Shown: positions 8,368-9,886 of the stretch, piece after piece
How positions within the stretch are numbered: position 1 is the stretch's first letter
How the letters are laid out: every line of letters starts with the position of its first letter
From: a virus
IMG/VR virus record: IMGVR_UViG_3300021505_000001
Coordinates: 1-64,000 of that record
DNA: 64,000 nucleotides
Direction: 5' to 3' (one strand)
Position numbers and translations under genes: made by a program
The notes under the pieces: generated by a model
What the model was told of the DNA's origin: nothing
Database searches by the model: none
Seen by the model: only the letters and a program-made list of their open reading frames with translations

Positions 8368-9851
8368 ACTAGTTTACAGCTATAATACTGGAAGAGCATA
8401 GTTAAGGCGTTATAACCTTAACCTTGTGGTTTCTAAAGAGGGGAACATTACAAAAAAATTGAAAAAAACGAAAAGAGAAGAAAACCACTCCTGGGCAAAG
8501 AGTAGGGTTTTTTTATCAATTTTTTTCTTTTTTGCAATTTTTTTATTAATTTTCTGAATATGTAATAAAAAGATTAATATTTACTACTTTTGTAGAAAAT
8601 TAATAATTTTTTGTAATATTCTTCTCTTCATAGCGATTAAGCTTATTTTGTAATTATGAATTTATAAAATCCCTTTGTCTCCCATTTTCTGGAAGCAAAG
8701 GAATTTTATTATTCATAATTTTATCATTGAGCGAAACAGCAGTATCTATTCTGAGAAGATATACATGCTCTTTTCTATATATTTTCTCAAAATTTACTAC
8801 TTTTTAACGTTTACTAACGACTTCCTGTATGATGATATTTAGTCCTGTGCGATTTTTTACGGCTCGCCACACCGTAACCTCCGCTTGCCTGGGTTTATGT
8901 AAAATTTAGTATGTGTTTCTTACCTATGCCGGTTACACTAACAGTGACCCCCTGCGCATAATAAATTTGAAAGTATCAAGTAAATCCATTTATATATTTA
9001 ATACAAATGGTGTTTAGACGACCTTATAAATTGTTAGGTGTCCGGGATTTAAAATCCACAACCATAACAAAATATAAGATTGCCGTTGGCCCAACTGACA
9101 CCAACTGCGGCGATTTTAGCTAAACAAAATGTCTAGCAGGACAACGCCGGTAAGAAAACCCTGTCTGATACTTTTAGCTCAAACTCATTATACTATTCCT
9201 TTCTCAGGCGGGATATAATAGTGTAGGGTGTATTTCTCACCGCAAGAACACTACATCCTAATTTTTACCCCATTTAAGCGGAATAATACACTGTGCTGGT
9301 GTGCTGTGCAATCTACCATTCTGCTCCTTTTCAGAACAGAAACACAATGTATTACCTGAACCTCCTATATAATAGGGTGGCTTGTTAAGGGAGTACCTGC
9401 CTACAGATGATTTATTCCTGTTATACATTCTTACGATTGAGCTAAACTGCATACTCAAATTAACAAACCAGCGGTTTTACCCATTATATAGTGGGTTACA
9501 AGGTTATTTACTGACGTTAATCAGTTGCCGGTATTGCCGTATCCTGTATAACTGGGTGTTTAAAAAACACACAAAGAGAGCGGTATTTTCATCATCTTTC
9601 GACTGATACCCCTACAGGGGTTATTCTGCATACCTTGGCAGAGGGTCGCCTTAATCCCCTACCACCATACAGGCAAATCCTATAATAGGATTACATTCTT
9701 TTAGTTATTATGGAGTATCCTGTCCTCTCATAACAGTATGATAAACCACAATAACAGGATTAAAGAATGTTGAAAAAACCTTTAGCTGTGCGCTAGAAAC
9801 GGCTGTTCCACACAAGCTATGATTTTTTGGTAGCCCTTTTATAGGCTTCCG
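8312..9851 (-). ncRNA. large structured non-coding RNA of unknown class (structured core about 8820-9850)
   Basis: No credible ORF over about 1.9 kb; raised GC in the core; promoter and terminator present; nested long-range helices (9663-9673/8824-8834, 9179-9191/8958-8970, 9460-9470/9378-9388, 9341-9354/9284-9297); GAAA-loop hairpins. Confidence 0.75.
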
Positions 9852-9854
9852 TAT

Positions 9855-9886
9855 AATGTTTTACTATAAGAAAAAATTCTTGTCAA
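9855..9886 (-). promoter_or_regulatory. promoter of the ncRNA: sigma70-type -35 with a -10 that coincides with the AAAACATT motif
   Basis: Minus strand TTGACA-17 bp-TAAAAC(ATTA); start near 9851. Confidence 0.7.

What the first reader, a model, noticed from the sequence alone, without database searches (positions are those of the whole stretch)
8812..9886. Giant highly structured phage non-coding RNA (about 1.0-1.5 kb) of unrecognised class
Seen: an ORF-free, GC-enriched kilobase in an otherwise densely coding AT-rich phage. It has a dedicated minus-strand promoter (TTGACA-17-TAAAAC, start about 9851) and a terminator at 8312-8367. An 11-bp helix CCUGUAUGGUG/CAUCAUACAGG (9663-9673 with 8824-8834) closes an ~850-nt domain. 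Nested inside are UAACCU/AGGUUA (9501-9506 with 8875-8880), CCGCU/AGCGG (9470-9474 with 8881-8885), UGGUUUGUUAA/UUAACAAGCCA, UAAUACAUUGUGUU/AGCACAGUGUAUUA, the 13-bp AUAAUGAGUUUGA/UCAAAUUUAUUAU, two GAAA-loop hairpins, and a possible 3' pseudoknot (8848-8878). All non-Watson-Crick positions in these helices are G-U on the minus strand (A-C on plus), which indicates selection on RNA structure. Known: phages carry rare large RNAs such as GOLLD and ROOL; I see no RNase P, tmRNA, rRNA or canonical intron signature. Inference: a new or divergent large ncRNA. It could be a scaffold/cage, a ribozyme, a defence decoy or an origin-priming RNA, and may form a system with the downstream HTH gene and iterons. 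Its -10 coincides with the putative late motif, suggesting expression throughout infection.
Basis: partly seen in the sequence, partly recalled or inferred. Interest (0 to 1): 0.92.

Follow-up and report, generated by a model that had tools for sequence, protein, structure and literature searches.

The report
Orphan 1.2-kb structured phage RNA gene
A gene-free, GC-enriched stretch of an uncultured giant phage most likely encodes a heavily folded, roughly 1.2-kb non-coding RNA of no catalogued family; selection keeps it almost unchanged between strains, but no relatives exist to prove the fold and its job is unknown.

Summary
Window 8082-10075 has no credible ORF in codes 11, 4 or TAG=Q. The core (8824-9673) has about 40% GC against 30% for the genome. 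Its minus strand gives the most stable fold in the 155.7-kb contig: z -7.8 against shuffles, and first against composition-matched windows. No Rfam 15 family matches, even at E<=10.

New evidence:
- A phage promoter motif, TAAAACATT, heads the stretch on the minus strand. It occurs 24 times in the genome, 20 of them intergenic and mostly 25-100 nt upstream of genes.
- A natural strain variant from another sequencing run differs at 2.1-2.8% in the flanking non-coding DNA. It differs at only 0.24% across 8640-9870 (3 differences, all in loops or at a helix end; p=2.6e-7).

Limits:
- The phage is a singleton and no homologue of the RNA was found, so covariation could not be tested.

Earlier scan notes describe other unclassified large RNAs in other phages. 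None shows sequence similarity to this one.

Verdict: probable new large structured RNA, function unknown.

The parts
9881..9886 (-). -35-like TTGACA hexamer of the minus-strand promoter
   Evidence: Read directly in the sequence. It lies 17 nt upstream of TAAAAC. The sigma-70 scan did not call it because the last base of the -10 is C.
9855..9863 (-). TAAAACATT, a phage-specific promoter-like motif heading the RNA; the transcription start is inferred at about 9845-9851
   Evidence: The genome has 24 copies. Twenty are intergenic (intergenic DNA is 11% of the genome), mostly 25-100 nt upstream of same-strand gene starts. This copy has no ORF for 1774 nt downstream.
9676..9847 (-). 5' leader: four hairpins (9847-9832, 9828-9773, 9770-9693, 9692-9676)
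   Evidence: MFE and pair probabilities 0.8-1.0. The only strain difference here is a 1-nt insertion at 9686, at the edge of the loop of the last hairpin.
9660..9673 (-). 5' strand of the 14-bp closing helix of the core
   Evidence: Pairs with 8824-8837, P 0.97, with two G.U pairs.
8824..8837 (-). 3' strand of the 14-bp closing helix
9359..9659 (-). 5' domain of the core; GC-rich, with competing folds
Evidence: Pair probabilities are only 0.3-0.4. No strain differences fall here.
9283..9355 (-). Long branched hairpin (14-bp and 9-bp stems, GAAAA loop)
   Evidence: P 0.93-0.95. The single core substitution, at 9318, falls at a junction-closing pair.
8880..9282 (-). 3' rod-like domain ending in a five-way junction (8971-9173)
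   Evidence: Helices have P 0.86-1.0. A covariance model of the junction finds only itself in the phage's own genome and in 40 related phage records.
8849..8877 (-). 7-bp hairpin whose GUGGCGA loop can pair with the downstream UCGC(AC); a possible H-type pseudoknot
   Evidence: Hairpin found. The pseudoknot pairing was read by eye and is untested.
8723..8821 (-). 3' tail hairpin (AT-rich, about 100 nt)
   Evidence: P 0.83-0.98. It lies inside the strain-conserved block.
8652..8720 (-). First terminator-like hairpin (A-tract, stem, U-tract); the probable 3' end of the RNA
   Evidence: -32.3 kcal/mol, z -9.1. Its weak tsr31 match is to a terminator-type hairpin only. Strain variation resumes just beyond it, at 8613.
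8312..8367 (-).
   Evidence: -24.4 kcal/mol, z -4.5. The interval 8082-8639 differs by 2.7% between strains.

Best explanation
Window about 9851 to about 8650, minus strand, is a stand-alone gene for a roughly 1.2-kb highly structured non-coding RNA of an uncatalogued family.

Proposed mechanism:
- It is transcribed from a promoter that combines a host-type TTGACA with the phage's own TAAAACATT element. That element also precedes most structural-gene units.
- It ends at the hairpin 8652-8720.
- A 14-bp helix joins the two ends of an 850-nt core. The core consists of a GC-rich 5' domain, a long hairpin, and a rod ending in a five-way junction.

Inferred, not shown: the folded core itself is the functional product. 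It would act in trans during infection as a structural RNA, either a protein-binding scaffold or a self-assembling particle in the manner of GOLLD or ROOL. The closing helix could serve as a processing stem.
For: - No ORF in three genetic codes.
- GC is 3 sd above the genome mean.
- Core MFE z is -7.8 on the minus strand against -4.2 on the plus strand.
- It is the most stable fold in the genome after composition correction.
- The G.U to A.C excess of 31:5 favours the minus strand and is the most extreme of 127 windows.
- The TAAAACATT motif, overwhelmingly intergenic and gene-proximal genome-wide, sits at the 5' edge with no gene behind it.
- Terminator-like hairpins lie at the 3' edge.
- A natural variant (Logan contig of run SRR32939039) shows 3 differences in 1231 nt of the unit against 29 in 1095 nt of flanking non-coding DNA (Fisher p 2.6e-7). 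All three fall in hairpin loops or at a helix end.
- The low-divergence block, 8614-9966, matches the stretch from promoter to first terminator.
- The downstream gene has its own promoter.
Against: - No homologue was found anywhere, so there is not one compensatory change to support any helix.
- The strand asymmetry is partly a generic property of G-rich sense strands in this phage.
- The composition-corrected signal is only about 2.8 background sd.
- The conservation rests on one variant strain, and a recombination tract could mimic it.
- The -10 element is non-canonical.
- The fold of the 5' domain is ambiguous.
- A trans-acting scaffold role is pure analogy.
Confidence: 0.55

Rival explanations
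1. The RNA acts in cis at a replication or regulatory region. It would be an origin transcript that primes or opens DNA (in the style of ColE1 RNA II or a T4 origin R-loop), or a very long structured leader controlling the downstream iteron-flanked 199-aa gene.
For: - The cumulative GC skew of the contig has its global minimum at 10054, next to the RNA's promoter.
- The RNA is followed by a 25%-GC spacer and by an orphan helix-rich gene flanked on both sides by CTTAACA boxes and 105-bp repeats.
- The RNA is on the same strand as the downstream gene.
Against: - Up to three terminator-like hairpins and a separate promoter lie between the RNA and the gene.
- The spacer that would hold the R-loop or origin is the least conserved part (2.7%).
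- Dense intramolecular pairing over 850 nt is more than a primer needs.
- The skew minimum also simply marks a switch in gene orientation.
Confidence: 0.2
2. The stretch is a functional DNA element, such as an origin, a packaging site or a protein-binding array, rather than an RNA. The hairpins would be DNA palindromes.
For: - Several hairpins are near-perfect DNA palindromes (for example 9676-9692 and 9364-9376), which could be operator-like sites.
- The plus strand also folds better than its shuffles (z -4.2).
- Conservation alone does not tell DNA from RNA.
Against: - Long-range helices with G.U pairs exist only on the minus strand: 31 G.U against 5 A.C, and 11:0 in 1x1 loops.
- There are no direct repeats or iterons inside the core.
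- A DNA site would not need a kilobase of GC-enriched, promoter-headed and terminator-closed sequence.
Confidence: 0.1
3. It is a non-functional remnant, such as decayed foreign DNA or a dead mobile element. Its apparent structure and conservation would then be accidental, the latter for example from a recent recombination tract.
For: - It is a singleton with no homologues.
- Its GC content is foreign to the genome.
- Only one variant strain is available.
Against: - z is -7.8 and it ranks first genome-wide for stability.
- The boundaries of the conserved block coincide with the promoter and the terminator.
- AT-biased decay would erase a GC island.
- No protein-like frame remains.
Confidence: 0.08
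4. It is a highly diverged member of a described family (GOLLD, ROOL, OLE, an ORF-less group II or group I intron, or RNase P) that the covariance models miss.
For: - Its size and ornate multi-junction look resemble GOLLD and ROOL.
- Single-sequence searches have limited reach.
Against: - No hit to any of the 4227 Rfam 15 models at gathering score.
- No hit to any of these families at E<=10 with permissive filters on 2.1 kb and on the 871-nt core.
- There are no tRNA genes in 155 kb and no reverse transcriptase.
- The flanks are non-coding, so there is no interrupted host gene for an intron.
Confidence: 0.05

Closest known systems
GOLLD RNA (Rfam family; accession RF01998 from memory; cryo-EM in PMC12286853)
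   Same: It is a large (over 800 nt), multi-junction 'ornate' RNA carried by phages and prophages, with no known function. GOLLD is reported to be expressed during phage production (from memory).
   Different: - No match to the Rfam model, even at E<=10.
- No neighbouring tRNA genes; there are none in 155 kb.
- No homologues, so no consensus to compare.
- Multimer formation is untested.
ROOL RNA (Rfam family; accession RF03087 from memory; PMC12286853)
   Same: It is a large structured RNA of phages and Firmicutes with no known function. ROOL forms RNA-only cages.
   Different: - No model match.
- This core is about 850 nt against about 580 nt for ROOL (ROOL size from memory).
- No tRNA neighbourhood.
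ColE1 RNA II and T4 origin R-loop transcripts (textbook knowledge)
   Same: These are structured, promoter-driven non-coding transcripts next to an AT-rich region, in a replicon that uses a family A polymerase. This locus sits at the GC-skew minimum.
   Different: - RNA II is about 550 nt and ends at the origin.
- Here the region 3' of the RNA is poorly conserved between strains.
- Terminators follow the RNA.
- No hybrid-forming G-rich/C-rich pair was identified.
Unclassified large phage RNAs noted earlier in this scan in crAss-like, Rak2-like and other uncultured phages (AI notes)
   Same: The signature is the same: a 0.6-2.1-kb ORF-free, GC-enriched, strand-skewed, heavily paired locus with no Rfam family.
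   Different: - Those cases had homologues and helix conservation; this one is a singleton.
- No shared sequence words with any of them.
- No blastn match in the phage collection.

Membership tests
GOLLD | Match to the family covariance model | tested here: not met
   cmscan against Rfam 15 gave no hit at gathering score on the whole window. It also gave none at E<=10 on 8000-10100 or on 8815-9685.
GOLLD / ROOL | Frequent adjacency to tRNA genes in phage or prophage DNA (from memory) | tested here: not met
   ARAGORN finds no tRNA or tmRNA in the window or in the whole 155.7-kb contig.
ROOL | Match to the family covariance model | tested here: not met
GOLLD / ROOL / OLE | Homo-oligomeric RNA-only assembly | not testable with these tools
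   This needs native gels, SEC-MALS or cryo-EM of the in vitro transcript.
Group II intron (ORF-less) | Domain V / D1-D4 model match, an interrupted host gene, and often an RT ORF | tested here: not met
   No Rfam intron hit at E<=10. Both flanks are non-coding. There is no RVT_1 domain in the contig.
Group I intron, RNase P RNA, tmRNA, rRNA fragment, self-cleaving ribozymes | Match to the respective Rfam models | tested here: not met
Large ornate structured ncRNA (informal category) | More than 500 nt, non-coding, many helices and multi-way junctions, more stable than chance | tested here: met
Large ornate structured ncRNA (informal category) | Helices supported by covariation among homologues | not testable with these tools
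   No homologue was found. Only near-identical strain copies exist, with one substitution in the core.
Protein-coding gene in an alternative code | A long open frame under TGA or TAG reassignment | tested here: not met
   The longest frames are 90 aa (table 4) and 75 aa (TAG=Q), scattered over both strands.

The most novel reading that the evidence does not exclude
A founding member of a new class of giant ornate phage RNA, with an 850-nt core comparable to or larger than GOLLD (over 800 nt). It would be made from the promoter class that precedes most structural-gene units in this jumbo phage, and it would work as a folded particle: an RNA-only assembly or a protein scaffold, possibly tied to the adjacent origin-like region.
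Probability: 0.4. Interest if true: 0.75.

Novelty: new variant of a known kind. Interest (0 to 1): 0.58.

Why it matters
Large structured RNAs without known function (GOLLD, ROOL, OLE) are among the least understood bacterial and phage gene products, and few families are known.

A further unrelated kilobase-sized example in a jumbo phage would widen that category. Such an example would carry a phage-specific promoter and be under tight purifying selection.

It would also give a compact construct (about 9851 to 8650, or the 850-nt core) for probing and cryo-EM.

Its place beside the GC-skew minimum and an iteron-flanked orphan gene also makes a link between a giant RNA and phage replication control testable.

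The main weakness is that the phage is a singleton. The case currently rests on intrinsic statistics and on one variant strain.

Tried and rejected
Searches for homologues of the RNA all failed:
- blastn ('distant' mode) against 50,697 phage records found no match.
- blastn over 40 IMG/VR records sharing the polymerase gave only chance 14-25-mers.
- nhmmer on six fully fetched relatives and on all pattern hits found nothing.
- A covariance model of the five-way junction, run on the phage's own genome and 40 relatives, found only itself.
- Exact-pattern scans of five GC-rich segments returned nothing or unrelated GC-rich contigs. There were two scans in viral contigs, two in metagenome contigs and one in genome contigs.

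Searches for relatives through neighbouring genes also failed:
- The 199-aa gene is an ORFan in 5.8 billion clusters and by phmmer over 1.84 billion representatives.
- The sigma-like gene has no close relative.
- The GATase and the 681-aa gene gave no loci.
- The best polymerase relative is 48% identical in IMG/VR and at most 26% identical among cultured phages.

Other lines that led nowhere:
- One relative (G022) has a 1.2-kb gap at 1881-3094 with no ORF of 70 aa or more. It is not GC-enriched, holds many short frames of 40-69 aa, and has no similarity to this RNA.
The stop-to-stop frames look random.
- AlphaFold on the 199-aa protein without an alignment gave pLDDT 51, which is unusable.
- A literature search found no description of such an RNA or of the source runs.
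- The GGACT protein look-up for more strain contigs was not on record.
- The raw energy difference between strands was rejected as an argument, because every gene's G-rich sense strand shows it.

Full report
**Context**

The window is the first 64 kb of a 155.7-kb IMG/VR viral contig with 30% GC, estimated at about 60% complete. An ENA assembly holds the same phage on a 203-kb contig, so this is a jumbo phage.

It is a singleton:
- Its family A polymerase is at most 48% identical to anything in IMG/VR and at most 26% identical to cultured phages.
- The two genes flanking the locus that were tested have no relatives. The 199-aa gene at 7482-8081 is an ORFan among 5.8 billion clusters and 1.84 billion representatives. 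The sigma-like gene at 11495-12487 has only one marginal hit.

**The observation**

*No coding capacity.* Window 8082-10075 contains no credible ORF under table 11, table 4 or TAG=Q. The stop-to-stop frames are short (at most 76 aa) and look random.

*GC content.* GC reaches 0.39-0.41 between 9000 and 9700, about 3 sd above the genome mean. The only other region this rich, at 115.3-116.4 kb, is coding.

*Stability.*
- The 850-nt core (8824-9673) folds on the minus strand at -277.1 kcal/mol, against -215.6 +/- 7.9 for dinucleotide shuffles (z -7.8). The plus strand gives z -4.2.
- Shuffles can flatter any natural sequence, so I also folded every 861-nt window of the genome on both strands and regressed MFE on composition. 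The minus strand of this locus is the most extreme (z -5.1 and -3.9) and has the lowest raw MFE. It is 56 kcal/mol more stable than an equally GC-rich coding window.
- The other outliers are short intergenic hairpin or terminator clusters, not kilobase-wide structure.

*Individual helices.*
- The 14-bp and 15-bp helices it listed are also in the MFE at P above 0.9.
- From 9282 to 8880 the RNA forms a rod that ends in a five-way junction at 9173-8971.
- Two nested helices it proposed, 9501-9506/8875-8880 and 9470-9474/8881-8885, are not favoured. They cost +4.6 and +15.7 kcal/mol when forced.
- The 5' domain 9359-9659 has competing folds.

**Which strand, and is it RNA?**

That needed a control. 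In this phage the sense strand of every gene is G-rich and folds 30-100 kcal/mol better than its antisense. The raw asymmetry therefore says little more than 'minus is the sense-like strand'.

A sharper test uses a Watson-Crick-only fold and counts what sits at helix interruptions and ends:
- G.U appears 31 times and A.C 5 times, with 11:0 in 1x1 loops.
- Base composition predicts about 1:1 here.
- After correcting each of 127 genome windows for its own composition, this window is the most extreme (z -3.6). However, the background is over-dispersed (sd 1.32, next -3.3).

This is supportive, not decisive.

**Transcription signals**

It occurs 24 times in the genome. Twenty copies are in the 11% of DNA that is intergenic, mostly 25-100 nt upstream of a same-strand gene start. 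Other readers' notes had flagged it as a late-promoter candidate. One copy sits at 9863-9855 on the minus strand, 17 nt after a TTGACA, with no ORF for 1774 nt. This is the best available evidence that the minus strand is transcribed from here.

*Terminators.* At the other end there are three terminator-like hairpins on the minus strand:
- 8720-8652 (-32.3 kcal/mol, A-tract/stem/U-tract);
- 8505-8485 (weak);

*Downstream gene.* The 199-aa gene has its own TTGACA-17-TAAACT promoter and its own TAAAACATT.

**Population evidence (new)**

An exact-protein look-up of the 199-aa gene returned three independent assemblies. Two are near-identical to the window. The third, a 2.9-kb Logan contig of run SRR32939039, is a natural variant at 98.9% identity spanning window 7087-10012. 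Its 34 differences are very unevenly spread:

| Region | Length (nt) | Differences | Rate |
|---|---|---|---|
| 9871-10012 (upstream) | 142 | 3 | 2.1% |
| 8640-9870 (RNA unit) | 1231 | 3 | 0.24% |
| 8824-9673 (core, within the unit) | 850 | 1 | 0.12% |
| 8082-8639 (AT-rich spacer) | 558 | 15 | 2.7% |
| 7482-8081 (199-aa gene) | 600 | 2, both synonymous | 0.33% |
| 7087-7481 (downstream non-coding) | 395 | 11 | 2.8% |

- Unit against non-coding flanks: Fisher p 2.6e-7.
- Even against a 1.4% neutral rate estimated roughly from the gene's two silent changes, P(<=3) is 3e-5.
- The three differences inside the unit are a 1-nt insertion at 9686, at the loop edge of the hairpin 9676-9692; a loop base of the terminator hairpin (8689); and a junction-closing pair (9318).
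- The low-divergence block (8614-9966) runs from the divergent promoter region to just past the first terminator hairpin.

Two conclusions follow. First, the stretch is under purifying selection at least as strong as on the adjacent protein gene. Second, the functional unit ends near 8650.

The caveats are that this rests on one variant and that a recombination tract could mimic the pattern.

**What it is not**

- No Rfam 15 family matches at gathering score.
- None matches at E<=10 on 2.1 kb or on the core alone. The only weak hit, tsr31 at 8666-8736, is a terminator-type hairpin.
- There is no tRNA or tmRNA in the whole contig and no reverse transcriptase.
- The flanks are non-coding, so an intron is unlikely.
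- There are no internal repeats.

**Homologues**

None was found:
- by blastn in the phage collection;
- by blastn, nhmmer or a covariance model in 40 polymerase-related phage records;
- by five exact-pattern scans of the viral, metagenome and genome collections;
- among earlier findings of this scan.

Covariation, the decisive test, could therefore not be run.

**Interpretation**

Most likely (about 0.55) this is a stand-alone, promoter-to-terminator gene for a roughly 1.2-kb structured RNA of a new family, whose 850-nt core is the functional product. The trans-acting scaffold or particle role is an inference by analogy with GOLLD and ROOL (PMC12286853) and is not shown.

The main rival (about 0.2) is a cis role at an origin or regulatory region:
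- For: the contig's cumulative GC skew has its global minimum at 10054. The RNA is followed by an AT-rich spacer and by an orphan gene flanked by CTTAACA boxes and 105-bp repeats.
- Against: the terminators, the separate promoter, and the poor conservation of the spacer.

A purely DNA-level element (0.1), a non-functional remnant (0.08) and a diverged known family (0.05) are less likely.

**Novelty and score**

Large unclassified RNAs are a known kind in phages, and this scan has noted several others in unrelated phages (unchecked notes). This one shares nothing detectable with them or with Rfam families, so it would be a new family within that kind.

It is a good experimental candidate, but the evidence is single-lineage. 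I score interest at 0.58.

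Noticed in passing
whole contig; in the window at 8180, 9855, 12508, 33237, 48100, 50178 and others: TAAAACATT behaves as a phage-specific promoter element. Of 24 copies, 20 are intergenic, and most lie 25-100 nt upstream of a same-strand gene. A sigma-70 region 2 protein is encoded at 11495-12487. Besides the copy at 9855, the copies at contig 110322 (+), 50178 (-), 76608 (+) and 140169 (+) have no nearby gene (279-1055 nt to the next same-strand start).
   Followed up: partly
window 6798-7103 and 8220-8306: The ORFan 199-aa gene (7482-8081) is flanked by CTTAACA(A/G)AA boxes in both orientations and by two 105-bp direct repeats. The contig's cumulative GC skew has its minimum nearby, at 10054. 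This is a candidate origin or autoregulated locus.
   Followed up: partly
window 40860-41100 (-): Three tandem short hairpins share a UUUUACUGG...CCA frame but have different stems. They are followed by a very long terminator hairpin. MFE z is -8.1.
   Followed up: partly
window 60690-61000 (+): A 260-nt intergenic gap is filled by several long hairpins (z -6.8). It is the second most over-structured 861-nt window in the genome.
   Followed up: partly
contig 118177-119407 (outside the window): This window has the second strongest composition-corrected G.U-over-A.C bias (minus strand, z -3.3) and a low MFE in a GC-rich coding block. It may hold structured mRNA or an embedded RNA.
   Followed up: no
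   Followed up: no
L095 (ENA ERZ27248037, contig k141_76817, 203,420 bp): An independent assembly carries the same phage on a 203-kb contig, so the genome is longer than the 155.7-kb IMG/VR record. Two further runs (SRR7051207, SRR32939039) hold the locus.
   Followed up: partly
L076 1881-3094 (IMG/VR relative G022): A polymerase-related phage has a 1.2-kb stretch with no ORF of 70 aa or more, but many short frames. It has no similarity to this RNA and was not examined further.
   Followed up: partly
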